Shown here one piece after another: positions 356 to 61,845 of a stretch of 64,000 nucleotides of DNA (position 1 is its first letter; each line of letters begins with the position of its first letter). Both the position numbers and the translations under genes were made by a program. The DNA comes from Carcharhinus amblyrhynchos (lineage: Eukaryota), in assembly GCA_965287045.1 (NCBI GenBank), contig CBDIYR020000303.1, positions 62,001 to 126,000 of the forward strand, in the 5' to 3' direction. The notes under the pieces were generated by a model. It was not told where the DNA came from, did not search any database, and worked only from the letters and a program-made list of their open reading frames with translations.

Positions 356-469
356 GAACCTCATCAACACGACAGCAATCAACTGGAGAATTAACTTCAA
401 CTGACACAACCACATTAACCATCAGTACAAATGTTCCCACCACATCTCCTGGAGCCTCAGTATCAGGAG
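356..469 (+). CDS. Mucin PTS cassette exon A (first copy): GTSSTRQQSTGE(L/S)TSTDTTTLTISTNVPTTSPGASVSG
   Basis: ttaaatAG|GAACC...TCAGGAG|GTAAAT, 114 nt, phase 1-1. Copies start at 356, 1610, 2866, 4119, 5373, 6627, 7883, 9137, 10393, 11646, 12900, 14154, 15410, 16663, 17917, 19171, 20427, 21680, 22934, 24190, 25443, 26696, 27951, 29203, 30457, 31710, 32963, 34217, 35470, 36725. Confidence 0.88.
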
Positions 470-15400: not shown

Positions 15401-18400
15401 CTTAGATAGGAACCTCATCAACACGACAGCAATCAACTGGAGAATCAACTTCAACTGACACAACCACATTAACCATCAGTACAAATGTTCCCACCACATC
15501 TCCTGGAGCCTCAGTATCAGGAGGTAAATGCCAGACATTGGGATCTATGGGGCGGACAGTTATTCATTGCTGCAGTCGGGAAAGTGTGCAGGTGCAATTT
15601 CCAAATTTCATTCGAGGAGGACGGTACTGGATCCTGTCACAGTTTCTCTCTGGGAACAGTGTCACTGAATAAACATAGATATACACAGCTTTGAATTCAT
15701 ACACAATGGGAGCATTAAATTCAAGATGCACGTGAGCAGGCAATCTATTGCAATGACGTTGCTAAGATTTACTAGGACCACTGTCCTGCTTCTGTTCACA
15801 ATGTACCCTCAGATCCAGTACTGGACCAAAGTGGGGAGATTGCGCTCCATTGAACATCTCAGGGGGGAATAATATCTGTGACAGTGAAGCACTCCCTCTG
15901 AGCACTACTGAGAGGATCAGCCTAGCTTTTGCTCTTTGAAGCTGTGACTGCCTCTTAACGTTGATCCAGAAGGAACCTATGAGAAATAGTCTTCCATTTC
16001 AATATGATAGAAGTACTAGTATTTGAAGCCGGTGTGTGGACATTCAGATGGGAAAGCAGAGACATGGAAAGACCGTTCATTATAAATGTGACACAATTAA
16101 CTTGATTTTAAACAGGAACAACATCAACAGAACAGGTATCAACAAGTGAATCAAGTTCAACTGGATCTCCAGCAGCAACCAGCCGCCCAAATCCTGGCCT
16201 GACATCGACTGGACCCCGGACATCAGGAGGTAAATGACAGACAATCTGACCGATTGTCTCAACATATCAAACTGGAAATATTCTCTGAGCAGCTGGTAGA
16301 CAAACGGGGAACACAATTCTCTGAAGTTTCTCTTGCTTGAATTCTAACACTATCTGTCAGTAGTTTATGAGAAACACTTACAATATCAGAGGAAGAAATA
16401 CGTGAAGTCAATTTAGGCACAATAAGATGCCAGAGAAAATTTTGAAAAACTTTGAACAGTGTAGAATGTTAGATACTGAGCAAAGTCAGACCCCTAAAAT
16501 AACATTTAAGGGAGGAGCATGTTACACACCCTACCTATCTGTTTGGAGCATCCATTTGAGCAGATCGCGCTTTCTAATAGGATGGGCGATTGTGATCACA
16601 AATCATCTGAAACAAATGGCTGAAAAGCATAAATCTGAACAAACTAATGTGATCTTAGATAGGAACCTCATCAACACGACAGCAATCAACTGGAGAATCA
16701 ACTTCAACTGACACAACCACATTAACCATCAGTACAAATGTTCCCACCACATCTCCTGGAGCCTCAGTATCAGGAGGTAAATGCCAGAGATTGGGATCTG
16801 TGGGGCGGACAGTTATTCATTGCTGCAGTCGGGAAAGTGTGCAGGTGCAATTTCCAAATTTCATTCGAGGAGGACGGTACTGGATCCTGTCACAGTTTCC
16901 CTCTGGGAACAGTGTCACTGAATAAACATAGATATACACAGCCTTCAATTCATACACAGTGGGAGCATTAAATTCAAGATGCACGTGAGCAGGCAATTCA
17001 TTTCAATGACGTTGCTAAGATTTACGTAGGACCACTGTCCTGCTTCTGTTCATAAGGTACCTTCAGATCCAGTACTGGACCAAAGTGGGGAGATTGTGCT
17101 CCATTGAACATCTCAGTGGGGAATAATATCTGTGATAGTGAAGCACTCCCTCTGAGCACTACTGAGAGGATCAGCCTAGCTTTTGCTCTTTGAAGCTGTG
17201 ACTGCCTCTTAACGTTGATCCAGAAGGAGCCTATGAGAAGTAGTCTTCCATTTCAATATGATAGAAGTACTAGTATTTGAAGCCGGTGTGTGGACATTCA
17301 GATGGGAAAGCAGAGACATGGAAAGACCGTTGATTATAAATGTGACACAATTAACTTGATTTTAAACAGGAACAACATCAACAGAACAGGTATCAACAAG
17401 TGAATCAAGTTCAACTGGATCTCCAGCAGCAACCAGCCGCCCAAATCCTGGCCTGACATCGACTGGACCCCGGACATCAGGAGGTAAATGACAGACAATC
17501 TGACCGATTGTCTCAACATATCAAACTGGAAATATTCTCTGAGCAGCTGGTAGACAAACGGGGAACACAATTCTCTGAAGTTTCTCTTGCTTGAATTCTA
17601 ACACTATCTGTCAGTAGTTTATGAGAAACACTTACAATATCAGAGGAAGAAATACGTGAAGTCAATTTAGGCACAATAAGATGCCAGAGAAAATTTTGAA
17701 AAACTTTGAACAGTGTAGAATGTTAGATACTGAGCAAAGTCAGACCCCTAAAATAACATTTAAGGGAGGAGCATGTTACACACCCTACCTATCTGTTTGG
17801 AGCATCCATTTGAGCAGATCGCGCTTTCTAATAGGATGGGCGATTGTGATCACAAATCATCTGAAACAAATGGCTGAAAAGCATAAATCTGAACAAACTA
17901 ATGTGATCTTAAATAGGAACCTCATCAACACGACAGCAATCAACTGGAGAATTAACTTCAACTGACACAACCACATTAACCATCAGTACAAATGTTCCCA
18001 CCACATCTCCTGGAGCCTCAGTATCAGGAGGTAAATGCCAGAGATGGGGATCTGTGGGGCGGACAGTTATTCATTGCTGCAGTCGGGAAAGTGTGCAGGT
18101 GCAATTTCCAAATTTCATTCGAGGAGGACGGTACTGGATCCTGTAACAGTTTCCCTCTGGGAACAGTGTCACTGAATAAACATAGATATACACAGCTTTG
18201 AATTCATACACAATGGGAGCATTAAATTCAAGATGCACGTGAGCAGGCAATTCATTTCAATGACGTTGCTAAGATTTACGTAGGACCACTGTCCTGCTTC
18301 TGTTCATAAGGTACCTTCAGATCCAGTACTGGACCAAAGTGGGGAGATTGCGCTCCATTGAACATCTCAGTGGGGAATAATATCTGTGATAGTGAAGCAC

Positions 18401-21400
18401 TCCCTCTGAGCACTACTGAGAGGATCAGCCTAGCTTTTGCTCTTTGAAGCTGTGACTGCCTCTTAACGTTGATCCAGAAGGAGCCTATGAGAAGTAGTCT
18501 TCCATTTCAATATGATAGAAGTACTAGAATTTGAAGCCGGTGTGTGGACATTCACATGGGAAAGCAGAGACATGGAAAGACCGTTCATTATAAATGTGAC
18601 ACAATTAACTTGACTTTAAACAGGAACAACATCAACAGAACAGGTATCAACAAGTGAATCAAGTTCAACTGGATCTCCAGCAGCAACCAGCCGCCCAAAT
18701 CCTGGCCTGACATCGACTGGACCCCGGACATCAGGAGGTAAATGACAGACAATCTGACCGATTGTCTCAACATATCAAACTGGAAATATTCTCTGAGCAG
18801 CTGGTAGACAAACGGGGAACACAATTCTCTGAAGTTTCTCTTGCTTGAATTCTAACACTATCTGTCAGTAGTTTATGAGAAACACTTACAATATCAGAGG
18901 AAGAAATACGTGAAGTCAATTTAGGCACAATAAGATGCCAGAGAAAATTTTGAAAAACTTTGAACAGTGTAGAATGTTAGATACTGAGCAAAGTCAGACC
19001 CCTAAAATAACATTTAAGGGAGGAGCATGTTACACACCCTACCTATCTGTTTGGAGCATCCATTTGAGCAGATCGCGCTTTCTAATAGGATGGGCGATTG
19101 TGATCACAAATCATCTGAAACAAATGGCTGAAAAGCATAAATCTGAACAAACTAATGTGATCTTAAATAGGAACCTCATCAACACGACAGCAATCAACTG
19201 GAGAATCAACTTCAACTGACACAACCACATTAACCATCAGTACAAATGTTCCCACCACATCTCCTGGAGCCTCAGTATCAGGAGGTAAATGCCAGAGATG
19301 GGGATCTGTGGGGCGGACAGTTATTCATTGCTGCAGTCGGGAAAGTGTGCAGGTGCAATTTCCAAATTTCATTCGAGGAGGACGGTACTGGATCCTGTCA
19401 CAGTTTCCCTCTGGGAACAGTGTCACTGAATAAACATAGATATACACAGCCTTCAATTCATACACAGTGGGAGCATTAAATTCAAGATGCACGTGAGCAG
19501 TCAATCCATTTCAATGATGTTGTTAAGATTTACGCAGGACCACTGTCCTGCTTCTGTTCACAAGGTAACCTCAGATCCAGTACTGGACCAAAGTGGGGAG
19601 ATTGCGCTCCATTGAATGTCTCGGTGGGGAATGATATCTGTGACAGTGAAGCACTTTCTCTGTGGACTACTGAGAGGATCAGCCTAGCTTTCCTCTGTGA
19701 AGCTGTGACTGCCTCTTACTGTTGATCCAGAAGGAGCCTATGAGAAGTAGTCTTCCATTTCAATATGATAGAAGTACTGGTATTTGAGTGCCGAAGTGTG
19801 GATATTCAGATGGGAAAGCAGAGACATGGAAAGACCGTTCATTATAAATGTGACACAATTAACTTGACTTTAAACAGGAACAACATCAACAGAACAGGTA
19901 TCAACAAGTGAATCAAGTTCAACTGGATCTCCAGCAGCAACCAGCCGCCCAAATCCTGGCCTGACATCGACTGGACCCCGGACATCAGGAGGTAAATGAC
20001 AGACAATCTGACCGATTGTCTCAACATATCAAACTGGAAATATTCTCTGAGCAGCTGGTAGACAAACGGGGAACACAATTCTCTGAAGTTTCTCTTGCTT
20101 GAATTCTAACACTATCTGTCAGTAGTTTATGTGAAACAGTTACCATATCAGAGGAAGAAATACGTGAAGTCAATCTCGGCACAATATGATGCCAGAGAAA
20201 ATTTTGATAACCTTTCAACAGAGAGTAGAATGTTAGACACTGAGCAAAGTCTGACCCCTAAAATAACACTTAAGGGATGAGCATGTTACGCGCCCTACCT
20301 ATCGGTTTGGAGCATCCATGTGAGCAGATCACGCTTTCTAATAGGATGGGCGATTGTGATCACAAATCATCTGAAACAAATGGCTGAAAAGCATAAATCT
20401 GAACAAACTAATGTGATCTTAGATAGGAACCTCATCAACACGACAGCAATCAACTGGAGAATCAACTTCAACTGACACAACCACATTAACCATCAGTACA
20501 AATGTTCCCACCACATCTCCTGGAGCCTCAGTATCAGGAGGTAAATGCCAGAGATTGGGATCTGTGGGGCGGACAGTTATTCATTGCTGCAGTCGGGAAA
20601 GTGTGCAGGTGCAATTTCCAAATTTCATTCGAGGAGGACGGTACTGGATCCTGTCACAGTTTCTCTCTGGGAACAGTGTCACTGAATAAACATAGATATA
20701 CACAGCTTTGAATTCATACACAATGGGAGCATTAAATTCAAGATGCACGTGAGCAGGCAATCTATTGCAATGACGTTGCTAAGATTTACTAGGACCACTG
20801 TCCTGCTTCTGTTCACAATGTACCCTCAGATCCAGTACTGGACCAAAGTGGGGAGATTGCGCTCCATTGAACATCTCAGGGGGGAATAATATCTGTGATA
20901 GTGAAGCACTCCCTCTGAGCACTACTGAGAGGATCAGCCTAGCTTTTGCTCTTTGAAGCTGTGACTGCCTCTTAACGTTGATCCAGAAGGAACCTATGAG
21001 AAATAGTCTTCCATTTCAATATGATAGAAGTACTAGTATTTGAAGCCGGTGTGTGGACATTCAGATGGGAAAGCAGAGACATGGAAAGACCGTTCATTAT
21101 AAATGTGACACAATTAACTTGATTTTAAACAGGAACAACATCAACAGAACAGGTATCAACAAGTGAATCAAGTTCAACTGGATCTCCAGCAGCAACCAGC
21201 CGCCCAAATCCTGGCCTGACATCGACTGGACCCCGGACATCAGGAGGTAAATGACAGACAATCTGACCGATTGTCTCAACATATCAAACTGGAAATATTC
21301 TCTGAGCAGCTGGTAGACAAACGGGGAACACAATTCTCTGAAGTTTCTCTTGCTTGAATTCTAACACTATCTGTCAGTAGTTTATGAGAAACACTTACAA

Positions 21401-24400
21401 TATCAGAGGAAGAAATACGTGAAGTCAATTTAGGCACAATAAGATGCCAGAGAAAATTTTGAAAAACTTTGAACAGTGTAGAATGTTAGATACTGAGCAA
21501 AGTCAGACCCCTAAAATAACATTTAAGGGAGGAGCATGTTACACACCCTACCTATCTGTTTGGAGCATCCATTTGAGCAGATCGCGCTTTCTAATAGGAT
21601 GGGCGATTGTGATCACAAATCATCTGAAACAAATGGCTGAAAAGCATAAATCTGAACAAACTAATGTGATCTTAGATAGGAACCTCATCAACACGACAGC
21701 AATCAACTGGAGAATCAACTTCAACTGACACAACCACATTAACCATCAGTACAAATGTTCCCACCACATCTCCTGGAGCCTCAGTATCAGGAGGTAAATG
21801 CCAGAGATTGGGATCTGTGGGGCGGACAGTTATTCATTGCTGCAGTCGGGAAAGTGTGCAGGTGCAATTTCCAAATTTCATTCGAGGAGGACGGTACTGG
21901 ATCCTGTCACAGTTTCCCTCTGGGAACAGTGTCACTGAATAAACATAGATATACACAGCCTTCAATTCATACACAGTGGGAGCATTAAATTCAAGATGCA
22001 CGTGAGCAGGCAATTCATTTCAATGACGTTGCTAAGATTTACGTAGGACCACTGTCCTGCTTCTGTTCATAAGGTACCTTCAGATCCAGTACTGGACCAA
22101 AGTGGGGAGATTGTGCTCCATTGAACATCTCAGTGGGGAATAATATCTGTGATAGTGAAGCACTCCCTCTGAGCACTACTGAGAGGATCAGCCTAGCTTT
22201 TGCTCTTTGAAGCTGTGACTGCCTCTTAACGTTGATCCAGAAGGAGCCTATGAGAAGTAGTCTTCCATTTCAATATGATAGAAGTACTAGAATTTGAAGC
22301 CGGTGTGTGGACATTCACATGGGAAAGCAGAGACATGGAAAGACCGTTCATTATAAATGTGACACAATTAACTTGATTTTAAACAGGAACAACATCAACA
22401 GAACAGGTATCAACAAGTGAATCAAGTTCAACTGGATCTCCAGCAGCAACCAGCCGCCCAAATCCTGGCCTGACATCGACTGGACCCCGGACATCAGGAG
22501 GTAAATGACAGACAATCTGACCGATTGTCTCAACATATCAAACTGGAAATATTCTCTGAGCAGCTGGTAGACAAACGGGGAACACAATTCTCTGAAGTTT
22601 CTCTTGCTTGAATTCTAACACTATCTGTCAGTAGTTTATGAGAAACACTTACAATATCAGAGGAAGAAATACGTGAAGTCAATTTAGGCACAATAAGATG
22701 CCAGAGAAAATTTTGAAAAACTTTGAACAGTGTAGAATGTTAGATACTGAGCAAAGTCAGACCCCTAAAATAACATTTAAGGGAGGAGCATGTTACACAC
22801 CCTACCTATCTGTTTGGAGCATCCATTTGAGCAGATCGCGCTTTCTAATAGGATGGGCGATTGTGATCACAAATCATCTGAAACAAATGGCTGAAAAGCA
22901 TAAATCTGAACAAACTAATGTGATCTTAAATAGGAACCTCATCAACACGACAGCAATCAACTGGAGAATCAACTTCAACTGACACAACCACATTAACCAT
23001 CAGTACAAATGTTCCCACCACATCTCCTGGAGCCTCAGTATCAGGAGGTAAATGCCAGAGATGGGGATCTGTGGGGCGGACAGTTATTCATTGCTGCAGT
23101 CGGGAAAGTGTGCAGGTGCAATTTCCAAATTTCATTCGAGGAGGACGGTACTGGATCCTGTCACAGTTTCCCTCTGGGAACAGTGTCACTGAATAAACAT
23201 AGATATACACAGCCTTCAATTCATACACAGTGGGAGCATTAAATTCAAGATGCACGTGAGCAGGCAATCCATTTCAATGATGTTGTTAAGATTTACGCAG
23301 GACCACTGTCCTGCTTCTGTTCACAAGGTAACCTCAGATCCAGTACTGGACCAAAGTGGGGAGATTGCGCTCCATTGAATGTCTCGGTGGGGAATGATAT
23401 CTGTGACAGTGAAGCACTTTCTCTGTGGACTACTGAGAGGATCAGCCTAGCTTTCCTCTGTGAAGCTGTGACTGCCTCTTACTGTTGATCCAGAAGGAGC
23501 CTATGAGAAGTAGTCTTCCATTTCAATATGATAGAAGTACTAGTATTTGAGTGCCGAAGTGTGGATATTCAGATGGGAAAGCAGAGACATTGAAAGACCG
23601 TTCATTATAAATGTGACACAATTAACTTGACTTTAAACAGGAACAACATCAACAGAACAGGTATCAACAAGTGAATCAAGTTCAACTGGATCTCCAGCAG
23701 CAACCAGCCGCCCAAATCCTGGCCTGACATCGACTGGACCCCGGACATCAGGAGGTAAATGACAGACAATCTGACTGATTGTCTCAACATATCAAACTGG
23801 AAATATTCTCTGAGCAGCTGGTAGACAAATGGGGAACACAATTCTCTGAAGTTTCTCTTGCTTGAATTCTAACACTATCTGTCAGTAGTTTATGTGAAAC
23901 AGTTACCATATCAGAGGAAGAAATACGTGAAGTCAATCTCGGCACAATATGATGCCAGAGAAAATTTTGATAACCTTTCAACAGAGAGTAGAATGTTAGA
24001 CACTGAGCAAAGTCTGACCCCTAAAATAACACTTAAGGGATGAGCATGTTACGCGCCCTACCTATCGGTTTGGAGCATCCATGTGAGCAGATCACGCTTT
24101 CTAATAGGATGGGCGATTGTGATCACAAATCATCTGAAACAAATGGCTGAAAAGCATAAATCTGAACAAACTAATGTGATCTTAGATAGGAACCTCATCA
24201 ACACGACAGCAATCAACTGGAGAATCAACTTCAACTGACACAACCACATTAACCATCAGTACAAATGTTCCCACCACATCTCCTGGAGCCTCAGTATCAG
24301 GAGGTAAATGCCAGACATTGGGATCTATGGGGCGGACAGTTATTCATTGCTGCAGTCGGGAAAGTGTGCAGGTGCAATTTCCAAATTTCATTCGAGGAGG

Positions 24401-27400
24401 ACGGTACTGGATCCTGTCACAGTTTCTCTCTGGGAACAGTGTCACTGAATAAACATAGATATACACAGCTTTGAATTCATACACAATGGGAGCATTAAAT
24501 TCAAGATGCACGTGAGCAGGCAATCTATTGCAATGACGTTGCTAAGATTTACTAGGACCACTGTCCTGCTTCTGTTCACAATGTACCCTCAGATCCAGTA
24601 CTGGACCAAAGTGGGGAGATTGCGCTCCATTGAACATCTCAGGGGGGAATAATATCTGTGACAGTGAAGCACTCCCTCTGAGCACTACTGAGAGGATCAG
24701 CCTAGCTTTTGCTCTTTGAAGCTGTGACTGCCTCTTAACGTTGATCCAGAAGGAACCTATGAGAAATAGTCTTCCATTTCAATATGATAGAAGTACTAGT
24801 ATTTGAAGCCGGTGTGTGGACATTCAGATGGGAAAGCAGAGACATGGAAAGACCGTTCATTATAAATGTGACACAATTAACTTGATTTTAAACAGGAACA
24901 ACATCAACAGAACAGGTATCAACAAGTGAATCAAGTTCAACTGGATCTCCAGCAGCAACCAGCCGCCCAAATCCTGGCCTGACATCGACTGGACCCCGGA
25001 CATCAGGAGGTAAATGACAGACAATCTGACCGATTGTCTCAACATATCAAACTGGAAATATTCTCTGAGCAGCTGGTAGACAAACGGGGAACACAATTCT
25101 CTGAAGTTTCTCTTGCTTGAATTCTAACACTATCTGTCAGTAGTTTATGAGAAACACTTACAATATCAGAGGAAGAAATACGTGAAGTCAATTTAGGCAC
25201 AATAAGATGCCAGAGAAAATTTTGAAAAACTTTGAACAGTGTAGAATGTTAGATACTGAGCAAAGTCAGACCCCTAAAATAACATTTAAGGAAGGAGCAT
25301 GTTACACACCCTACCTATCTGTTTGGAGCATCCATTTGAGCAGATCGCGCTTTCTAATAGGATGGGCGATTGTGATCACAAATCATCTGAAACAAATGGC
25401 TGAAAAGCATAAATCTGAACAAACTAATGTGATCTTAAATAGGAACCTCATCAACACGACAGCAATCAACTGGAGAATTAACTTCAACTGACACAACCAC
25501 ATTAACCATCAGTACAAATGTTCCCACCACATCTCCTGGACCCTCAGTATCAGGAGGTAAATGCCAGAGATGGGGATCTGTGGGGCGGACAGTTATTCAT
25601 TGCTGCAGTCGGGAAAGTGTGCAGGTGCAATTTCCAAATTTCATTCGAGGAGGACGGTACTGGATCCTGTCACAGTTTCCCTCTGGGAACAGTGTCACTG
25701 AATAAACATAGATATACACAGCCTTCAATTCATACACAGTGGGAGCATTAAATTCAAGATGCACGTGAGCAGTCAATCCATTTCAATGATGTTGTTAAGA
25801 TTTACGCAGGACCACTGTCCTGCTTCTGTTCACAAGGTACCCTCAGATCCAGTACTGGACCAAAGTGGGGAGATTGCGCTCCATTGAATGTCTCGGGGGG
25901 GAATGATATCTGTGACAGTGAAGCACTTTCTCTGTGGACTACTGAGAGGATCAGCCTAGCTTTCCTCTGTGAAGCTGTGACTGCCTCTTACTGTTGATCC
26001 AGAAGGAGCCTATGAGAAGTAGTCTTCAATTTCAATATGATAGAAGTACTAGTATTTGAAGCCGGTGTGTGGACATTCAGATGGGAAAGCAGAGACATGG
26101 AAAGACCGTTCATTATAAATGTGACACAATTAACTTGATTTTAAACAGGAACAACATCAACAGAACAGGTATCAACAAGTGAATCAAGTTCAACTGGATC
26201 TCCAGCAGCAACCAGCCGCCCAAATCCTGGCCTGACATCGACTGGACCCCGGACATCAGGAGGTAAATGACAGACAATCTGACCGATTGTCTCAACATAT
26301 CAAACTGGAAATATTCTCTGAGCAGCTGGTAGACAAACGGGGAACACAATTCTCTGAAGTTTCTCTTGCTTGAATTCTAACACTATCTGTCAGTAGTTTA
26401 TGAGAAACATTTACAATATCAGAGGAAGAAATACGTGAAGTCAATTTAGGCACAATAAGATGCCAGAGAAAATTTTGAAAAACTTTGAACAGTGTAGAAT
26501 GTTAGATACTGAGCAAAGTCAGACCCCTAAAATAACATTTAAGGGAGGAGCATGTTACACACCCTACCTATCTGTTTGGAGCATCCATTTGAGCAGATCG
26601 CGCTTTCTAATAGGATGGGCGATTGTGATCACAAATCATCTGAAACAAATGGCTGAAAAGCATAAATCTGAACAAACTAATGTGATCTTAAATAGGAACC
26701 TCATCAACACGACAGCAATCAACTGGAGAATTAACTTCAACTGACACAACCACATTAACCATCAGTACAAATGTTCCCACCACATCTCCTGGACCCTCAG
26801 TATCAGGAGGTAAATGCCAGAGATGGGGATCTGTGGGGCGGACAGTTATTCATTGCTGCAGTCGGGAAAGTGTGCAGGTGCAATTTCCAAATTTCATTCG
26901 AGGAGGACGGTACTGGATCCTGTCACAGTTTCCCTCTGGGAACAGTGTCACTGAATAAACATAGATATACACAGCTTTGAATTCATACACAATGGGAGCA
27001 TTAAATTCAAGATGCACGTGAGCAGGCAATCTATTGCAATGACGTTGCTAAGATTTACTAGGACCACTGTCCTGCTTCTGTTCACAATGTACCCTCAGAT
27101 CCAGTACTGGACCAAAGTGGGGAGATTGCGCTCCATTGAACATCTCAGGGGGGAATAATATCTGTGATAGTGAAGCACTCCCTCTGAGCACTACTGAGAG
27201 GATCAGCCTAGCTTTTGCTCTTTGAAGCTGTGACTGCCTCTTAACGTTGATCCAGAAGGAGCCTATGAGAAGTAGTCTTCCATTTCAATATGATAGAAGT
27301 ACTAGTATTTGAAGCCGGTGTGTGGACATTCAGATGGGAAAGCAGAGACATGGAAAGACCGTTGATTATAAATGTGACACAATTAACTTGATTTTAAACA

Positions 27401-30400
27401 GGAACAACATCAACAGAACAGGTATCAACAAGTGAATCAAGTTCAACTGGATCTCCAGCAGCAACCAGCCGCCCAAATCCTGGCCTGACATCGACTGGAC
27501 CCCGGACATCAGGAGGTAAATGACAGACAATCTGACCGATTGTCTCAACATATCAAACTGGAAATATTCTCTGAGCAGCTGGTAGACAAACGGGGAACAC
27601 AATTCTCTGAAGTTTCTCTTGCTTGAATTCTAACACTATCTGTCAGTAGTTTATGTGAAACAGTTACCATATCAGAGGAAGAAATACGTGAAGTCAATCT
27701 CGGCACAATACGATGCCAGAGAAAATTTTGATAACCTTTCAACAGAGAGTAGAATGTTAGACACTGAGCAAAGTCTGACCCCTAAAATAACACTTAAGGG
27801 ATGAGCATGTTACGCGCCCTACCTATCGGTTTGGAGCATCCATGTGAGCAGATCACGCTTTCTAATAGGATGGGCGATTGTGATCACAAATCATCTGAAA
27901 CAAATGGCTGAAAAGCATAAATCTGAACAAACTAATGTGATCTTAGAGAGGAACCTCATCAACACGACAGCAATCAACTGGAGAATCAACTTCAACTGAC
28001 ACAACCACATTAACATGAGTACAAATGTTCCCACCACATCTCCTGGAGCCTCAGTATCAGGAGGTAAATGCCAGACATTGGGATCTATGGGGCGGACAGT
28101 TATTCATTGCTGCAGTCGGGAAAGTGTGCAGGTGCAATTTCCAAATTTCATTCGAGGAGGACGGTACTGGATCCTGTCACAGTTTCTCTCTGGGAACAGT
28201 GTCACTGAATAAACATAGATATACACAGCTTTGAATTCATACACAATGGGAGCATTAAATTCAAGATGCACGTGAGCAGGCAATCTATTGCAATGACGTT
28301 GCTAAGATTTACTAGGACCACTGTCCTGCTTCTGTTCACAATGTACCCTCAGATCCAGTACTGGACCAAAGTGGGGAGATTGCGCTCCATTGAACATCTC
28401 AGGGGGGAATAATATCTGTGACAGTGAAGCACTCCCTCTGAGCACTACTGAGAGGATCAGCCTAGCTTTTGCTCTTTGAAGCTGTGACTGCCTCTTAACG
28501 TTGATCCAGAAGGAACCTATGAGAAATAGTCTTCCATTTCAATATGATAGAAGTACTAGTATTTGAAGCCGGTGTGTGGACATTCAGATGGGAAAGCAGA
28601 GACATGGAAAGACCGTTCATTATAAATGTGACACAATTAACTTGATTTTAAACAGGAACAACATCAACAGAACAGGTATCAACAAGTGAATCAAGTTCAA
28701 CTGGATCTCCAGCAGCAACCAGCCGCCCAAATCCTGGCCTGACATCGACTGGACCCCGGACATCAGGAGGTAAATGACAGACAATCTGACCGATTGTCTC
28801 AACATATCAAACTGGAAATATTCTCTGAGCAGCTGGTAGACAAACGGGGAACACAATTCTCTGAAGTTTCTCTTGCTTGAATTCTAACACTATCTGTCAG
28901 TAGTTTATGAGAAACACTTACAATATCAGAGGAAGAAATACGTGAAGTCAATTTAGGCACAATAAGATGCCAGAGAAAATTTTGAAAAACTTTGAACAGT
29001 GTAGAATGTTAGATACTGAGCAAAGTCAGACCCCTAAAATAACATTTAAGGAAGGAGCATGTTACACACCCTACCTATCTGTTTGGAGCATCCATTTGAG
29101 CAGATCGCGCTTTCTAATAGGATGGGCGATTGTGATCACAAATCATCTGAAACAAATGGCTGAAAAGCATAAATCTGAACAAACTAATGTGATCTTAGAT
29201 AGGAACCTCATCAACACGACAGCAATCAACTGGAGAATCAACTTCAACTGACACAACCACATTAACCATCAGTACAAATGTTCCCACCACATCTCCTGGA
29301 GCCTCAGTATCAGGAGGTAAATGCCAGAGATTGGGATCTGTGGGGCGGACAGTTATTCATTGCTGCAGTCGGGAAAGTGTGCAGGTGCAATTTCCAAATT
29401 TCATTCGAGGAGGACGGTACTGGATCCTGTCACAGTTTCCCTCTGGGAACAGTGTCACTGAATAAACATAGATATACACAGCCTTCAATTCATACACAGT
29501 GGGAGCATTAAATTCAAGATGCACGTGAGCAGGCAATTCATTTCAATGACGTTGCTAAGATTTACGTAGGACCACTGTCCTGCTTCTGTTCATAAGGTAC
29601 CTTCAGATCCAGTACTGGACCAAAGTGGGGAGATTGTGCTCCATTGAACATCTCAGTGGGGAATAATATCTGTGATAGTGAAGCACTCCCTCTGAGCACT
29701 ACTGAGAGGATCAGCCTAGCTTTTGCTCTTTGAAGCTGTGACTGCCTCTTAACGTTGATCCAGAAGGAGCCTATGAGAAGTAGTCTTCCATTTCAATATG
29801 ATAGAAGTACTAGTATTTGAAGCCGGTGTGTGGACATTCAGATGGGAAAGCAGAGACATGGAAAGACCGTTCATTATAAATGTGACACAATTAACTTGAT
29901 TTTAAACAGGAACAACATCAACAGAACAGGTATCAACAAGTGAATCAAGTTCAACTGGATCTCCAGCAGCAACCAGCCGCCCAAATCCTGGCCTGACATC
30001 GACTGGACCCCGGACATCAGGAGGTAAATGACAGACAATCTGACCGATTGTCTCAACATATCAAACTGGAAATATTCTCTGAGCAGCTGGTAGACAAACG
30101 GGGAACACAATTCTCTGAAGTTTCTCTTGCTTGAATTCTAACACTATCTGTCAGTAGTTTATGAGAAACACTTACAATATCAGAGGAAGAAATACGTGAA
30201 GTCAATTTAGGCACAATAAGATGCCAGAGAAAATTTTGAAAAACTTTGAACAGTGTAGAATGTTAGATACTGAGCAAAGTCAGACCCCTAAAATAACATT
30301 TAAGGGAGGAGTATGTTACACACCCTACCTATCTGTTTGGAGCATCCATTTGAGCAGATCGCGCTTTCTAATAGGATGGGCGATTGTGATCACAAATCAT

Positions 30401-33400
30401 CTGAAACAAATGGCTGAAAAGCATAAATCTGAACAAACTAATGTGATCTTAAATAGGAACCTCATCAACACGACAGCAATCAACTGGAGAATTAACTTCA
30501 ACTGACACAACCACATTAACCATCAGTACAAATGTTCCCACCACATCTCCTGGACCCTCAGTATCAGGAGGTAAATGCCAGAGATGGGGATCTGTGGGGC
30601 GGACAGTTATTCATTGCTGCAGTCGGGAAAGTGTGCAGGTGCAATTTCCAAATTTCATTCGAGGAGGACGGTACTGGATCCTGTCACAGTTTCCCTCTGG
30701 GAACAGTGTCACTGAATAAACATAGATATACACAGCCTTCAATTCATACACAGTGGGAGCATTAAATTCAAGATGCACGTGAGCAGTCAATCCATTTCAA
30801 TGATGTTGTTAAGATTTACGCAGGACCACTGTCCTGCTTCTGTTCACAAGGTACCCTCAGATCCAGTACTGGACCAAAGTGGGGAGATTGCGCTCCATTG
30901 AATGTCTCGGGGGGGAATGATATCTGTGACAGTGAAGCACTTTCTCTGTGGACTACTGAGAGGATCAGCCTAGCTTTCCTCTGTGAAGCTGTGACTGCCT
31001 CTTACTGTTGATCCAGAAGGAGCCTATGAGAAGTAGTCTTCAATTTCAATATGATAGAAGTACTAGTATTTGAAGCCGGTGTGTGGACATTCAGATGGGA
31101 AAGCAGAGACATGGAAAGACCGTTCATTATAAATGTGACACAATTAACTTGATTTTAAACAGGAACAACATCAACAGAACAGGTATCAACAAGTGAATCA
31201 AGTTCAACTGGATCTCCAGCAGCAACCAGCCGCCCAAATCCTGGCCTGACATCGACTGGACCCCGGACATCAGGAGGTAAATGACAGACAATCTGACCGA
31301 TTGTCTCAACATATCAAACTGGAAATATTCTCTGAGCAGCTGGTAGACAAACGGGGAACACAATTCTCTGAAGTTTCTCTTGCTTGAATTCTAACACTAT
31401 CTGTCAGTAGTTTATGAGAAACATTTACAATATCAGAGGAAGAAATACGTGAAGTCAATTTAGGCACAATAAGATGCCAGAGAAAATTTTGAAAAACTTT
31501 GAACAGTGTAGAATGTTAGATACTGAGCAAAGTCAGACCCCTAAAATAACATTTAAGGGAGGAGCATGTTACACACCCTACCTATCTGTTTGGAGCATCC
31601 ATTTGAGCAGATCGCGCTTTCTAATAGGATGGGCGATTGTGATCACAAATCATCTGAAACAAATGGCTGAAAAGCATAAATCTGAACAAACTAATGTGAT
31701 CTTAAATAGGAACCTCATCAACACGACAGCAATCAACTGGAGAATTAACTTCAACTGACACAACCACATTAACCATCAGTACAAATGTTCCCACCACATC
31801 TCCTGGAGCCTCAGTATCAGGAGGTAAATGCCAGAGATGGGGATCTGTGGGGCGGACAGTTATTCATTGCTGCAGTCGGGAAAGTGTGCAGGTGCAATTT
31901 CCAAATTTCATTCGAGGAGGACGGTACTGGATCCTGTCACAGTTTCCCTCTGGGAACAGTGTCACTGAATAAACATAGATATACACAGCTTTGAATTCAT
32001 ACACAATGGGAGCATTAAATTCAAGATGCACGTGAGCAGGCAATCTATTGCAATGACGTTGCTAAGATTTACTAGGACCACTGTCCTGCTTCTGTTCACA
32101 ATGTACCCTCAGATCCAGTACTGGACCAAAGTGGGGAGATTGCGCTCCATTGAACATCTCAGGGGGGAATAATATCTGTGATAGTGAAGCACTCCCTCTG
32201 AGCACTACTGAGAGGATCAGCCTAGCTTTTGCTCTTTGAAGCTGTGACTGCCTCTTAACGTTGATCCAGAAGGAGCCTATGAGAAGTAGTCTTCCATTTC
32301 AATATGATAGAAGTACTAGTATTTGAAGCCGGTGTGTGGACATTCAGATGGGAAAGCAGAGACATGGAAAGACCGTTGATTATAAATGTGACACAATTAA
32401 CTTGATTTTAAACAGGAACAACATCAACAGAACAGGTATCAACAAGTGAATCAAGTTCAACTGGATCTCCAGCAGCAACCAGCCGCCCAAATCCTGGCCT
32501 GACATCGACTGGACCCCGGACATCAGGAGGTAAATGACAGACAATCTGACCGATTGTCTCAACATATCAAACTGGAAATATTCTCTGAACAGCTGGTAGA
32601 CAAACGGGGAACACAATTCTCTGAAGTTTCTCTTGCTTGAATTCTAACACTATCTGTCAGTAGTTTATGAGAAACACTTACAATATCAGAGGAAGAAATA
32701 CGTGAAGTCAATTTAGGCACAATAAGATGCCAGAGAAAATTTTGAAAAACTTTGAACAGTGTAGAATGTTAGATACTGAGCAAAGTCAGACCCCTAAAAT
32801 AACATTTAAGGGAGGAGCATGTTACACACCCTACCTATCTGTTTGGAGCATCCATTTGAGCAGATCGCGCTTTCTAATAGGATGGGCGATTGTGATCACA
32901 AATCATCTGAAACAAATGGCTGAAAAGCATAAATCTGAACAAACTAATGTGATCTTAGATAGGAACCTCATCAACACGACAGCAATCAACTGGAGAATCA
33001 ACTTCAACTGACACAACCACATTAACCATCAGTACAAATGTTCCCACCACATCTCCTGGAGCCTCAGTATCAGGAGGTAAATGCCAGAGATTGGGATCTG
33101 TGGGGCGGACAGTTATTCATTGCTGCAGTCGGGAAAGTGTGCAGGTGCAATTTCCAAATTTCATTCGAGGAGGACGGTACTGGATCCTGTCACAGTTTCC
33201 CTCTGGGAACAGTGTCACTGAATAAACATAGATATACACAGCCTTCAATTCATACACAGTGGGAGCATTAAATTCAAGATGCACGTGAGCAGGCAATTCA
33301 TTTCAATGACGTTGCTAAGATTTACGTAGGACCACTGTCCTGCTTCTGTTCATAAGGTACCTTCAGATCCAGTACTGGACCAAAGTGGGGAGATTGTGCT

Positions 33401-36400
33401 CCATTGAACATCTCAGTGGGGAATAATATCTGTGATAGTGAAGCACTCCCTCTGAGCACTACTGAGAGGATCAGCCTAGCTTTTGCTCTTTGAAGCTGTG
33501 ACTGCCTCTTAACGTTGATCCAGAAGGAGCCTATGAGAAGTAGTCTTCCATTTCAATATGATAGAAGTACTAGTATTTGAAGCCGGTGTGTGGACATTCA
33601 GATGGGAAAGCAGAGACATGGAAAGACCGTTCATTATAAATGTGACACAATTAACTTGATTTTAAACAGGAACAACATCAACAGAACAGGTATCAACAAG
33701 TGAATCAAGTTCAACTGGATCTCCAGCAGCAACCAGCCGCCCAAATCCTGGCCTGACATCGACTGGACCCCGGACATCAGGAGGTAAATGACAGACAATC
33801 TGACCGATTGTCTCAACATATCAAACTGGAAATATTCTCTGAGCAGCTGGTAGACAAACGGGGAACACAATTCTCTGAAGTTTCTCTTGCTTGAATTCTA
33901 ACACTATCTGTCAGTAGTTTATGAGAAACACTTACAATATCAGAGGAAGAAATACGTGAAGTCAATTTAGGCACAATAAGATGCCAGAGAAAATTTTGAA
34001 AAACTTTGAACAGTGTAGAATGTTAGATACTGAGCAAAGTCAGACCCCTAAAATAACATTTAAGGGAGGAGTATGTTACACACCCTACCTATCTGTTTGG
34101 AGCATCCATTTGAGCAGATCGCGCTTTCTAATAGGATGGGCGATTGTGATCACAAATCATCTGAAACAAATGGCTGAAAAGCATAAATCTGAACAAACTA
34201 ATGTGATCTTAAATAGGAACCTCATCAACACGACAGCAATCAACTGGAGAATTAACTTCAACTGACACAACCACATTAACCATCAGTACAAATGTTCCCA
34301 CCACATCTCCTGGACCCTCAGTATCAGGAGGTAAATGCCAGAGATGGGGATCTGTGGGGCGGACAGTTATTCATTGCTGCAGTCGGGAAAGTGTGCAGGT
34401 GCAATTTCCAAATTTCATTCGAGGAGGACGGTACTGGATCCTGTCACAGTTTCCCTCTGGGAACAGTGTCACTGAATAAACATAGATATACACAGCCTTC
34501 AATTCATACACAGTGGGAGCATTAAATTCAAGATGCACGTGAGCAGTCAATCCATTTCAATGATGTTGTTAAGATTTACGCAGGACCACTGTCCTGCTTC
34601 TGTTCACAAGGTACCCTCAGATCCAGTACTGGACCAAAGTGGGGAGATTGCGCTCCATTGAATGTCTCGGGGGGGAATGATATCTGTGACAGTGAAGCAC
34701 TTTCTCTGTGGACTACTGAGAGGATCAGCCTAGCTTTCCTCTGTGAAGCTGTGACTGCCTCTTACTGTTGATCCAGAAGGAGCCTATGAGAAGTAGTCTT
34801 CAATTTCAATATGATAGAAGTACTAGTATTTGAAGCCGGTGTGTGGACATTCAGATGGGAAAGCAGAGACATGGAAAGACCGTTCATTATAAATGTGACA
34901 CAATTAACTTGATTTTAAACAGGAACAACATCAACAGAACAGGTATCAACAAGTGAATCAAGTTCAACTGGATCTCCAGCAGCAACCAGCCGCCCAAATC
35001 CTGGCCTGACATCGACTGGACCCCGGACATCAGGAGGTAAATGACAGACAATCTGACCGATTGTCTCAACATATCAAACTGGAAATATTCTCTGAGCAGC
35101 TGGTAGACAAACGGGGAACACAATTCTCTGAAGTTTCTCTTGCTTGAATTCTAACACTATCTGTCAGTAGTTTATGAGAAACATTTACAATATCAGAGGA
35201 AGAAATACGTGAAGTCAATTTAGGCACAATAAGATGCCAGAGAAAATTTTGAAAAACTTTGAACAGTGTAGAATGTTAGATACTGAGCAAAGTCAGACCC
35301 CTAAAATAACATTTAAGGGAGGAGCATGTTACACACCCTACCTATCTGTTTGGAGCATCCATTTGAGCAGATCGCGCTTTCTAATAGGATGGGCGATTGT
35401 GATCACAAATCATCTGAAACAAATGGCTGAAAAGCATAAATCTGAACAAACTAATGTGATCTTAAATAGGAACCTCATCAACACGACAGCAATCAACTGG
35501 AGAATTAACTTCAACTGACACAACCACATTAACCATCAGTACAAATGTTCCCACCACATCTCCTGGAGCCTCAGTATCAGGAGGTAAATGCCAGAGATGG
35601 GGATCTGTGGGGCGGACAGTTATTCATTGCTGCAGTCGGGAAAGTGTGCAGGTGCAATTTCCAAATTTCATTCGAGGAGGACGGTACTGGATCCTGTCAC
35701 AGTTTCCCTCTGGGAACAGTGTCACTGAATAAACATAGATATACACAGCTTTGAATTCATACACAATGGGAGCATTAAATTCAAGATGCACGTGAGCAGG
35801 CAATCTATTGCAATGACGTTGCTAAGATTTACTAGGACCACTGTCCTGCTTCTGTTCACAATGTACCCTCAGATCCAGTACTGGACCAAAGTGGGGAGAT
35901 TGCGCTCCATTGAACATCTCAGGGGGGAATAATATCTGTGATAGTGAAGCACTCCCTCTGAGCACTACTGAGAGGATCAGCCTAGCTTTTGCTCTTTGAA
36001 GCTGTGACTGCCTCTTAACGTTGATCCAGAAGGAGCCTATGAGAAGTAGTCTTCCATTTCAATATGATAGAAGTACTAGTATTTGAAGCCGGTGTGTGGA
36101 CATTCAGATGGGAAAGCAGAGACATGGAAAGACCGTTGATTATAAATGTGACACAATTAACTTGATTTTAAACAGGAACAACATCAACAGAACAGGTATC
36201 AACAAGTGAATCAAGTTCAACTGGATCTCCAGCAGCAACCAGCCGCCCAAATCCTGGCCTGACATCGACTGGACCCCGGACATCAGGAGGTAAATGACAG
36301 ACAATCTGACCGATTGTCTCAACATATCAAACTGGAAATATTCTCTGAGCAGCTGGTAGACAAACGGGGAACACAATTCTCTGAAGTTTCTCTTGCTTGA

Positions 36401-39400
36401 ATTCTAACACTATCTGTCAGTAGTTTATGTGAAACAGTTACCATATCAGAGGAAGGAATACGTGAAGTCAATCTCGGCACAATACGATGCCAGAGAAAAT
36501 TTTGATAACCTTTCAACAGAGAGTAGAATGTTAGACACTGAGCAAAGTCTGACCCCTAAAATAACACTTAAGGGATGAGCATGTTACGCGCCCTACCTAT
36601 CGGTTTGGAGCATCCATGTGAGCAGATCACGCTTTCTAATAGGATGGGCGATTGTGATCACAAATCATCTGAAACAAATGGCTGAAAAGCATAAATCTGA
36701 ACAAACTAATGTGATCTTAGAGAGGAACCTCATCAACACGACAGCAATCAACTGGAGAATCAACTTCAACTGACACAACCACATTAACATGAGTACAAAT
36801 GTTCCCACCACATCTCCTGGAGCCTCAGTATCAGGAGGTAAATGCCAGACATTGGGATCTATGGGGCGGACAGTTATTCATTGCTGCAGTCGGGAAAGTG
36901 TGCAGGTGCAATTTCCAAATTTCATTCGAGGAGGACGGTACTGGATCCTGTCACAGTTTCTCTCTGGGAACAGTGTCACTGAATAAACATAGATATACAC
37001 AGCTTTGAATTCATACACAATGGGAGCATTAAATTCAAGATGCACGTGAGCAGGCAATCTATTTCAATGACGTTGCTAAGATTTACGCAGGACCACTGTC
37101 CTGCTTCTGTTCACAATGTACCCTCAGATCCAGTACTGGACCAAAGTGGGGAGATTGCGCTCCATTGAATGTCTCGGGGGGGAATGATATCTGTGACAGT
37201 GAAGCACTTTCTCTGTGGACTACTGAGAGGATCAGCCTAGCTTTCCTCTGTGAAGCTGTGACTGCCTCTTACTGTTGATCCAGAAGGAGCCTATGAGAAG
37301 TAGTCTTCCATTTCAATATGATAGAAGTACTAGTATTTGAGTGCCGAAGTGTGGATATTCAGATGGGAAAGCAGAGACATGGAAAGACCGTTCATTATAA
37401 ATGTGACACAATTAACTTGACTTTAAACAGGAACAACATCAACAGAACAGGTATCAACAAGTGAATCAAGTTCAACTGGATCTCCAGCAGCAACCAGCCG
37501 CCCAAATCCTGGCCTGACATCGACTGGACCCCGGACATCAGGAGGTAAATGACAGACAATCTGACCGATTGTCTCAACATATCAAACTGGAAATATTCTC
37601 TGAGCAGCTGGTAGACAAACGGGGAACACAATTCTCTGAAGTTTCTCTTGCTTGAATTCTAACACTATCTGTCAGTAGTTTATGTGAAACAGTTACCATA
37701 TCAGAGGAAGAAATACGTGAAGTCAATCTCGGCACAATATGATGTCAGAGAAAATTTTGATAACCTTTCAACAGAGAGTAGAATGTTAGACACTGAGCAA
37801 AGTCTGACCCCTAAAATAACACTTAAGGGATGAGCATGTTACGCGCCCTACCTATCGGTTTGGAGCATCCATGTGAGCAGATCACGCTTTCTAATAGGAT
37901 GGGCGATTGTGATCACAAATCATCTGAAACAAATGACTGAAAAGCATAAATCTGAACAAACTAATGTGATCTTAAATAGGAACCTCATCAACAGGACAGG
38001 AATCAACTGGAGAATCAACTTCAACTGTCACAACACCATTAACCAGCAGTGCCGATGTTCCCACCTCATCTTCTGCGGCCCCAACATCAGGAGGTAAGTG
38101 GCAGACGTTGGGATCTAAGGGGTGGACAATTATTCGTTTCTGGAGCTGGGAAATTGCGCAGGCACAATATCCAAATTATATTCCGGGAGGGCAGTGCTGG
38201 ATCCTTGGGACAGTTTGAAGTGAGGAAATGACCTGAAATCTCACTTTCACCAATTAACGGCCCCTTGACCTCATTAAGGAACCTGTCACAGTTTCTCTCC
38301 GGGAACAGTGTCACAGAATTAACAGAGAGATACACAGCCTTCAATTGATAGACAGTGGGAGCACTAAATTCAAGATGCACGTGAGCAGACAATCTATTTC
38401 AATGACGTTGCTAAGATTTACGCAGGACCACTGTCCTGCTTCTGTTCACAATGTACCCTCAGATCCAGTACTGGACCAAAGTGGGGAGATTGCGCTCCAT
38501 TGAACATCTCGGGGCGAATTATATCTGTGACAGTGAAGCACTCCCTCTGAGGACTACTGAGAGGATCAGCCTAGCTTTTGCTCTTTTAAGCTGTGACTGC
38601 CTCTTAACGTTGATCCAGAAGGAGCCTATGAGAAGTAGTCTTCCATTTCAATATGATAGAAGTACAAGTGTTTGAGTGCCGGTGTGTGGACATTCAGATG
38701 GGAAAGCAGAAACATGGAAAGACCGTTTATTATAAATGTGACACAATTAACTTGATTTTAAACAGGAACAACATCAACAGAACAGGAAGCAACAAGTGAA
38801 TCAAGTTCAACTGCATCTCCAGCAGCAACCAGCAGCCCAAATCCTGGCCTGACATCGACTGGACCCTGGACATCAGGAGGTAAATGACAAACAATCTGAC
38901 CGATTGTCTCAACATATCAAACTGGAAATATTCTCTGAGCAGCTGGTAGACAAATGGGGACCACAATTCTCTGAAGTGTCTCCCTCTTGAGTTCTAACAG
39001 TGAATGTAACTATTTTATGTGAAACGCTTACAATTATCAGGGAAAGAAATATGTGATGTCAATTTCGGCACAATAAGATGCCAGAGAAAATTCTGATGAC
39101 CTATGAACAGAGATTAGAACGTGAGGCACTGAGCAAAGTCAGGTTTCAAAAGTATCATTTAAATTCAGGAAGGAGAATGTTACGCACCCTTCTTTTCAAT
39201 TTGGAGCATCGATTTGAGTAGATCACGCTTCCTATTTGAAGGGTGATTCTGATCACAAATCATCTCAAATAAATATTTGCAAAGTGTAAACCTGAACAAA
39301 CCAATGTGATCTAAAACAGGAACCTCATCAACAGGACAGGAATCAACAAGTGAATCAAGTTCAACTGGATCCCCAGCAGCAACTAGCCGCCCAAATCCTG

Positions 39401-61459: not shown

Positions 61460-61499
61460 GTACTTCAGTCACCTTTTCTCATCTCTCCTTGTTTGTCTT

Positions 61500-61845
61500 G
61501 GCTTCCATGGACTAATTAAGTAGAGAAGTCAAGTTTAAATCCCTGAATGCCAGTTTCAGATTGGAATTTTATTTAACTAATGTAAAAATAACTCACTGGT
61601 TTCAATGACCATGGAGTTGCTGGATTGATACAACAACCCAACAAAACCATTATACTCTAGGGAAGGAAATCTGCATCCTAATCCAGTCTGTTATCCAAGA
61701 CTTCAATCCAACATCAATGTGGGTCATCTCTTAATTGCTCTCGGATGTATCATAGTGTTTCAGTTCAAGGGGAAGGCTCACCATGAGTTCTCAGGAAAAT
61801 GAGAAATGGGCATTATATGCTGGCCATATAACTGATGCCCACTTA
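61500..61845 (+). mobile_element. Decayed tRNA-SINE, same family as 53990-54335
   Basis: aatgaccatgga...agggaaggaaatctgcatcct...atgggca...atgctggcc...gatgcccac mirrors the reverse complement of the 54-kb element. Confidence 0.55.

What the first reader, a model, noticed from the sequence alone, without database searches (positions are those of the whole stretch)
27941..28063. Stop-bearing cassette exon with coupled acceptor mutation, duplicated at 36715-36837
Seen: two A copies 8,774 bp (7 units) apart share TAG>GAG at the acceptor plus a 1-nt deletion/substitution giving ...ACA TTA ACA TGA. The identical recurrence argues against random sequencing error. Inference: a full-length TM mucin requires skipping these exons, which is internal evidence that cassette skipping happens. 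Inclusion would give NMD (poison exon) or a truncated, TM-less secreted mucin.
Basis: partly seen in the sequence, partly recalled or inferred. Interest (0 to 1): 0.75.

Follow-up and report, generated by a model that had tools for sequence, protein, structure and literature searches.

The report
Broken repeat exons in shark mucin
In a membrane-mucin gene, likely of a shark, whose stalk is predicted to be spliced from at least 75 near-identical small exons, the same broken exon sits in two copies of one 3.5-kb block and a third exon carries its own stop; these are likely damaged spare modules that splicing would skip, not a built-in control switch.

Summary
The lesions are real in the assembly. 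Exons 27951-28063 and 36725-36837 share the acceptor change TAG>GAG, a 1-nt deletion, a C>G change and a TGA stop.

They are not independent recurrences. Both lie in one duplicated 3.5-kb block with 4 mismatches, so there is one origin.

- A third stop exon (4119-4232, CGA>TGA) has intact splice dinucleotides.
- A competing TAG lies 4 nt upstream of the acceptor in 14 of 30 young A exons.
- All three usable acceptors of the mutant exon lead to a stop.

The gene is a MUC3/MUC17-like mucin (84% identical to Mustelus mucin-17-like). Its C-terminus is intact and it has 75 symmetric repeat exons. All exon variation in the young array falls in A-type exons. A relative's contig shows a separate acceptor loss at exon A.

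Best reading: decayed, optional A exons skipped in frame (0.5). Rivals are an LPA-like null haplotype (0.27), an assembly artefact (0.08) and a regulated poison exon (0.06). No RNA could be examined, so skipping is inferred, not shown. Multi-exon mucin domains and dead exons in tandem arrays are known.

The parts
356..47384 (+). Array of 75 phase-1/phase-1 PTS exons (72 intact 114-nt, 1 with a stop, 2 of 113 nt); 38 A-type, 37 B-type; unit about 1,254 bp; runs off the left edge of the window
   Evidence: exon borders inferred from AG/GT and frame, not from RNA
27943..27950 (+). Mutant acceptor TTAGAGAG: candidate AGs end at -5 (TAG), -3 (GAG) and -1 (GAG); only branch-point match CTAAT, with its A at -16
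27951..28063 (+). Broken A exon, copy 1 (113 nt; C deletion and C>G; TGA 28016-28018; donor intact)
36725..36837 (+). Broken A exon, copy 2 (same lesions; TGA 36790-36792)
4119..4232 (+). Third stop-bearing A exon: CGA>TGA at 4133, singleton, splice dinucleotides unchanged, acceptor of the TTAGATAG class
24767..28289 (+). Duplicated block, first copy (holds broken exon 1)
   Evidence: 4 mismatches in 3,523 bp
33541..37063 (+). Duplicated block, second copy (holds broken exon 2)
27402..27515 (+). B exon upstream of broken copy 1 (identical in 30 of 30 young copies)
28656..28769 (+). B exon downstream of broken copy 1; joining it to the upstream B keeps the frame
48086..62984 (+). Ten predicted downstream exons (48086-48163, 48858-48968 EGF, 50860-50978 / 52001-52059 / 53370-53509 SEA, 55685-55753, 58846-59008 and 61283-61459 second Cys-rich domain plus hydrophobic TM-like stretch, 62006-62109, 62917-62984 tail): 363 codons, no stop
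   Evidence: 84% identical over 333 columns to XP_078056943.1 mucin-17-like [Mustelus asterias]

Best explanation
The two 113-nt exons lie in two copies of one 3.5-kb block of a mucin repeat array, and are likely a single decayed A-type exon, copied once by unequal crossing-over, that splicing would mostly skip so that B joins B in frame. Shown: the lesions, the shared block, the symmetric exon phases, the open C-terminal frame, and that exon variation is confined to A exons. Inferred: the acceptor weakened first (AG gain at -5, then T>G at -3), the exon then decayed freely, and losing one 38-residue module out of dozens costs little. Any inclusion, most plausibly through the TAG at -5, would give a stop and loss of that transcript by NMD as a side effect, not as regulation.
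For: One origin: block of 3,523 bp with 4 mismatches. Unit U22 differs from its class mate U12 at only 4 positions, and all 4 alleles are shared with U29. All 75 exons are phase 1-1, and leaving out the three stop exons in silico gives 3,099 codons without a stop. Among 29 young units, exon B has 0 of 114 variable columns and exon A has 7 of 114, against 82 of 1,029 in introns. All 6 events fall in A (P=0.016 if A and B were equal; post hoc), whereas a null haplotype should decay in A and B alike. A acceptors are repeatedly damaged: AG gain in 14 of 30 young copies, inside the human high-risk zone BP+8 to ACC-4 (PMC10655562). GAG is the least favoured acceptor (PMC3095350). Run X6 (organism A) has a contig of mean depth 275 with AG>GG at the same acceptor, and an overlapping contig of depth 366 with a Ser>Cys change; 0 of 2,774 residues of the window's 114-nt exons are Cys. 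A frameshift and a splice-site hit in the same unit would coincide by chance about 1-3% of the time. The single private difference between the two blocks suggests an age of about 2e5 generations (95% range 5e3-1.1e6; rate from PMC10587355).
Against: No RNA was examined, so skipping is not shown. The third stop exon (4119-4232) keeps its AG and GT and would also have to be skipped. The TAG at -5 is a canonical YAG 11 nt after the predicted branch point. In human pathogenic cases AG gains made a new acceptor in 74% and caused complete skipping in 31%, so inclusion with a stop may be commoner than skipping. A exons are not simply neutral. They alternate with B in a catshark gene model (74-79% identity). 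Common variants are depleted in exon A (2 of 114 vs 70 of 1,029, P=0.04), although intron variants are clustered and not independent. The local depth of the X6 acceptor change is unknown. The age estimate rests on one base and on another species' mutation rate.
Confidence: 0.5

Rival explanations
1. Null haplotype, as in LPA KIV-2. The stop exons are included, the mRNA is lost to NMD, and further lesions pile up on an already dead allele. The other allele or a paralogue supplies the mucin.
For: There are two independent truncating lesions on one haplotype, one with intact splice dinucleotides. The TAG at -5 offers an inclusion route that still ends in a stop. Human precedent: an Arg>stop in a KIV-2 repeat rides on a haplotype already null by a splice mutation (PMC7442989 abstract). 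The intact C-terminus has little power to exclude a young null allele (inference).
Against: Exon variation is confined to A: 0 of 114 columns vary in B, and 30 of 30 young B copies are identical. The frameshift is coupled to an acceptor hit. An acceptor loss at exon A also appears in a relative's contig.
Confidence: 0.27
2. Assembly or polishing artefact: a read error or chimeric unit was duplicated during assembly of the repeat.
For: None of the alleles appeared in contigs of X1, X3 or X6. A 3,536-bp perfect repeat lies between the two copies.
Against: The same contigs also fail to show the -5 G allele of 14 of 30 young A exons, so the test is insensitive or the runs come from other animals. 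The two blocks differ at 4 sites. Four linked private alleles, three of them substitutions, are shared by U22 and U29. 3 of 10 singletons are CpG transitions, including the third stop (P=0.004), which looks like real mutation.
Confidence: 0.08
3. Regulated poison exon, or a switch to a secreted TM-less mucin.
For: All three acceptors lead to a stop, the donor is intact, and the lesion survived a duplication.
Against: The exon is not conserved: 2 of 30 young copies, with one origin. There is a further stop upstream at 4133. At least 39 predicted exons follow the stop in the second copy, which favours decay of the mRNA over a stable secreted form (NMD rule from general knowledge). No orthologous lesion was seen in 3 runs (an insensitive test).
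Confidence: 0.06

Closest known systems
Chicken and zebrafish Muc13 with a multi-exon PTS domain (Lang 2006, PMC1552070; passages read)
   Same: One near-identical exon per PTS repeat in a SEA-type membrane mucin. That paper already proposed length control by alternative splicing.
   Different: Here the C-terminus matches proteins named mucin-17-like / mucin-3B-like. The repeats are 38 residues in an alternating A/B pair, there are at least 75 of them, and some carry stops. The passages read report no stop-bearing exons ('stop codon' 0 hits).
Human MUC3A/MUC3B/MUC12/MUC17 cluster (PMC9578598, PMC13643018; passages read)
   Same: PTS, SEA flanked by two EGF-like domains, TM and cytoplasmic tail.
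   Different: The mammalian PTS is one large exon; here it is split into dozens. The PDZ motif and the ACHE/TRIM56 synteny could not be checked in this window.
LPA KIV-2 array with R21X and splice variants (PMC7442989; abstract read)
   Same: A nonsense change in one copy of a tandem coding repeat array, linked to a splice lesion on the same haplotype.
   Different: In LPA the alleles are null. Here every exon is symmetric, so a single exon can drop out in frame.
Glycophorin B pseudoexon 3 (PMC11073628; passages read)
   Same: An exon silenced by an inactive splice site in a functional gene, and exchangeable by gene conversion.
   Different: That case is a fixed lesion in a single-copy exon of a paralogue. 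Here it is a rare acceptor lesion in 2 of 30 tandem copies, and the silencing is not shown.

Membership tests
MUC3/MUC12/MUC17-type membrane mucin | S/T/P-rich repeat domain | tested here: met
   T 27%, S 25%, P 8% over 2,774 residues
MUC3/MUC12/MUC17-type membrane mucin | SEA domain flanked by two EGF-like domains, then TM | tested here: met
   Single-exon Pfam hits, all below the curated cut-offs: SEA E=1.5e-5 (25.5 vs 26.4 bits), EGF_2 E=8.7e-4. The exon of the second Cys-rich domain had no Pfam hit. The chain is 84% identical to mucin-17-like of Mustelus, which carries PF01390. TM judged by eye from the hydrophobic stretch.
MUC3/MUC12/MUC17-type membrane mucin | Nearest named relatives belong to the family | tested here: met
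   Of 10 hits looked up (out of 150 listed), 2 are named mucin-17-like, 4 mucin-3B(-like), 4 uncharacterised/hypothetical, and none MUC13. These are automated names; no tree was built.
MUC3/MUC12/MUC17-type membrane mucin | PTS encoded by one large exon (mammalian definition) | tested here: not met
   75 separate exon-like modules with stop-containing spacers. It is therefore MUC3/17-like, not filed as an orthologue.
MUC3/MUC12/MUC17-type membrane mucin | C-terminal PDZ motif, signal peptide, ACHE/TRIM56 synteny | not testable with these tools
   The last exon was not found by a motif scan up to 64000, the first exon lies left of the window, and no genome is held.
Regulated poison exon | Inclusion introduces a premature stop upstream of further junctions | tested here: met
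   All three acceptors give a stop
Regulated poison exon | Conserved across individuals and species | tested here: inconclusive
   Not seen in contigs of X1, X3 or X6; X7 laid nothing. The contigs also miss a common allele. Within the array it has one origin, in 2 of 30 copies.
Regulated poison exon | Regulated inclusion, stabilised when NMD is blocked | not testable with these tools
   No RNA run was available to lay
Pseudoexon in a functional gene (GYPB-type) | Splice signal damaged | tested here: inconclusive
   The -3 base is changed to G, but AG and GT remain and a TAG at -5 could serve. No splice-scoring program was available.
Pseudoexon in a functional gene (GYPB-type) | Absent from mature mRNA while the gene stays expressed | not testable with these tools
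   No RNA run was available to lay

The most novel reading that the evidence does not exclude
A-type exons form an optional tier of a modular mucin. Acceptor-weakening variants (AG gain at -5 in 14 of 30 copies, T>G at -3, AG>GG in a relative) spread through the array by unequal crossing-over. The splice-site make-up of a haplotype, and not only its copy number, would then set stalk length, A:B composition and, through NMD, expression level. The three stop exons would be a natural reporter for the length control by splicing that Lang et al. proposed in 2006.
Probability: 0.15. Interest if true: 0.6.

Novelty: new member of a known kind. Interest (0 to 1): 0.3.

Why it matters
If skipping is real, this haplotype is a ready-made test of an old proposal (PMC1552070) that multi-exon mucin domains change length by splicing: any TM-bearing transcript from it must lack three defined exons. 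It would also show how symmetric exons let a long coding array absorb nonsense and frameshift lesions. If the haplotype is null, it is an ordinary LPA-like loss-of-function allele. Either way the specific claim of a duplicated, regulated poison exon is weak.

Tried and rejected
Expression and raw reads
- No RNA holder was listed. This is no evidence on expression either way.
- 4 of 21 listed runs were laid, all of them contigs. X7 laid 0 records and 15 of 37 records were not shown. Every listed difference had at least one contig with 31 or more letters to its end, so variants near contig ends are probably hidden (my inference). Absence of the mutant alleles is therefore uninformative.
- No whole genome is held, so paralogues, the first exon and synteny could not be examined.

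Protein searches
- Longer homologues of P0001: none scored among 1,475 candidates.
- Proteins with the B repeat: none among 71 candidates. Both are weak negatives.

Earlier scan findings: none.

Literature
- Searches listed nothing on stop-bearing or skipped repeat exons in shark mucins.
- PMC13345508 had 0 hits for five truncation terms. PMC4948705 passages added nothing.
- The library lacks most subscription papers, and no supplements were read. Supplements of the mucin inventories could list this gene.

Readings rejected
- Independent recurrence: there is one duplicated block.
- Frame rescue by the TAG at -5 plus the deletion: the exon is 117 nt and the frame is restored, but a TGA at 27997-27999 comes first.
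- Stop-restart at the ATGA overlap (ATG at 28015): the product would lack a signal peptide, and I saw no supporting element.
- A local template for the lesion: no match of 10 nt or longer on the same strand elsewhere in the window.

Full report
OBSERVATION. The left 47.4 kb of the window is a tandem array of 75 exon-like modules bounded by AG and GT, 38 A-type and 37 B-type, with a unit of about 1,254 bp. Seventy-three are 114 nt and read in phase 1-1 as 38-residue repeats (T 27%, S 25%, P 8%, no Cys). Two are 113 nt: 27951-28063 and 36725-36837, 8,774 bp or 7 units apart. Both carry T>G at acceptor position -3, a C deletion and a C>G change four bases on, giving TGA at 28016-28018 and 36790-36792. 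Their donors are intact.

First, a third A exon (4119-4232) has CGA>TGA at 4133 with AG and GT unchanged; its unit differs from a class mate by this one base. In silico, leaving out only the two 113-nt exons still leaves this stop, while leaving out all three gives 3,099 open codons through the last exon found. Second, the mutant acceptor offers three AGs, ending at -5 (TAG), -3 (GAG) and -1 (GAG). They give exons of 117, 115 and 113 nt, and each contains a stop. Third, the TAG at -5 is not private: 14 of 30 young A exons have it (12 TTAGATAG, 2 TTAGAGAG) and 0 of 8 older ones do. The only branch-point match is at -16, so this AG lies in the zone BP+8 to ACC-4. In humans, AG gains in introns made a new acceptor in 74% and caused complete skipping in 31% of 350 pathogenic cases (PMC10655562, passages). 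GAG is the least preferred acceptor, in the order C>T>A>G (PMC3095350, passages). All three stop exons are of the TTAG class, but these are only two events, which is not significant.

ONE ORIGIN. The two broken exons lie in a block 24767-28289 / 33541-37063 with 4 mismatches in 3,523 bp. Unit U22 differs from its class mate U12 at 4 positions, and all 4 alleles are shared with U29. Three of the four block mismatches are alleles present in other units, and one is private. The recurrence is therefore a duplication, most simply by unequal crossing-over (inference), and not repeated selection. One new base in 2 x 3,523 bp at 7e-10 per generation (epaulette shark, PMC10587355, passages) gives about 2e5 generations, with a 95% range of 5e3 to 1.1e6. 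This rests on one base and another species.

THE GENE. Ten predicted downstream exons join into 363 codons without a stop. They are 84% identical over 333 columns to P0001, mucin-17-like of Mustelus asterias, and 50% identical to mucin-17-like of Narcine. My first two attempts at the tail were wrong: one search omitted an exon and one search was off by one base. Pfam on 7 single reading frames gave SEA (E 1.5e-5) and EGF (E 9e-4) hits below their cut-offs, weak hits on the hydrophobic exon, and nothing on 4 frames. Of 10 hits looked up, 6 are named mucin-17-like or mucin-3B(-like). A Scyliorhinus torazame gene model has the same alternating 38-residue repeats (A 74-79%, B 70% identical), so A is an ancestral coding module. 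The source is likely a ground shark (inference from these identities). Mammalian MUC3/12/17 have a single PTS exon (PMC9578598, PMC13643018, passages). Multi-exon PTS domains are known from chicken and zebrafish Muc13, where length control by splicing was proposed (PMC1552070, passages).

SELECTION IN THE ARRAY. I used 29 young units; U30, of the older type, was dropped. Exon B has 0 of 114 variable columns, exon A 7 of 114 and introns 82 of 1,029. B versus introns gives P=0.0002 and A versus introns P=0.58. Only 31 of 1,257 windows of 114 nt are invariant. All seven A changes alter or break the protein. Against plain neutrality of A, its common variants are fewer than in introns (2 of 114 vs 70 of 1,029, P=0.04), and its variants are skewed to rare ones (5 rare to 2 common, vs 12 to 70; P=0.002). 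Intron variants come in clusters, so these P values are too small. All 6 exon events fall in A (P=0.016, post hoc). A frameshift and a splice-site hit in one unit would coincide by chance in 1-3% of cases. Three of 10 singletons are CpG transitions, including the third stop (P=0.004), which looks like real mutation rather than read error.

OTHER RUNS. The run search listed 21 runs, none on record as RNA. Four were laid on a wild-type A exon (15290-15640). X7 laid nothing. X1, X3 and X6 hold the array at a depth about 20-28 times that of contigs carrying the unique 3' end (the tool warns that depth is no copy number). None showed the mutant alleles, but none showed the common -5 G allele either, so this does not test for an artefact. 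In X6 (organism A) a contig of mean depth 275 reads AG>GG at the A-exon acceptor, and an overlapping contig of depth 366 has TCT>TGT (Ser>Cys). The depth at the site itself is unknown. It is a hint of a separate loss of exon A in a relative.

MECHANISM AND RIVALS. The most likely reading (0.5) is that A exons are partly dispensable. One copy lost acceptor strength, decayed and was duplicated. It is mostly skipped, joining B to B in frame, and any inclusion simply wastes that transcript. The steps from 'dispensable' onward are inferred. The main rival (0.27) is a null haplotype like the double-null LPA alleles (PMC7442989, abstract). The third stop and the usable TAG at -5 favour it, and the untouched B exons count against it. 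An assembly artefact (0.08) and a regulated poison exon or secreted isoform (0.06) are less likely. The NMD rule and default skipping after acceptor loss are general knowledge and come from no call.

VERDICT. The feature is real in the assembly and ordinary in kind: dead or optional exons in a tandem coding array, as in LPA KIV-2 and the glycophorin B pseudoexon (PMC11073628, passages). Searches listed no report of such exons in a shark mucin, within a library that lacks most subscription papers. No supplements were read. The remaining value is as a test case for splicing-based length control of multi-exon mucins. Interest 0.3.

Noticed in passing
window 4119-4232: Third stop-bearing A exon (CGA>TGA at a CpG) with intact splice dinucleotides.
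   Followed up: yes
window, acceptors of 14 of 30 young A exons (e.g. 29195-29202): A>G at -5 creates a competing TAG 4 nt upstream of the acceptor. Its use would give a 118-nt exon with a stop. It was not seen in contigs of X1, X3 or X6.
   Followed up: partly
run X6 laid on window 15408 and 15500: In organism A, high-depth contigs show AG>GG at the A-exon acceptor and a Ser>Cys codon: possibly an independent loss of exon A.
   Followed up: partly
window 29053-32588 and 32813-36348: Perfect 3,536-bp direct repeat (3 units) between the two broken exons: a very recent duplication or an assembly duplication.
   Followed up: no
window 1063-24000: Higher-order repeat of about 4 units (period about 5,017 bp) with hybrid units, changing to a 3-unit period further right.
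   Followed up: partly
window 28015-28018: The lesion makes an ATGA overlap whose ATG is in the original downstream frame. Probably chance (ATC>ATG).
   Followed up: partly
window 37980-47384: Older, more diverged A, B and hybrid exons; all 15 are intact.
   Followed up: partly
window 62006-62109 and downstream: The Mustelus model ends just after the exon matching 62006-62109, whereas the window offers an in-frame continuation at 62917-62984 resembling the Narcine tail: possibly alternative cytoplasmic tails.
   Followed up: no
window 49099-50110 and 59472-61225: Intronic minisatellites of 28 bp (36 copies) and 69 bp (25 copies).
   Followed up: no
window about 50125-50330 and 54490-54700: An inverted pair of a similar dispersed element of about 200 bp in two introns (seen by eye and as matching frames).
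   Followed up: no
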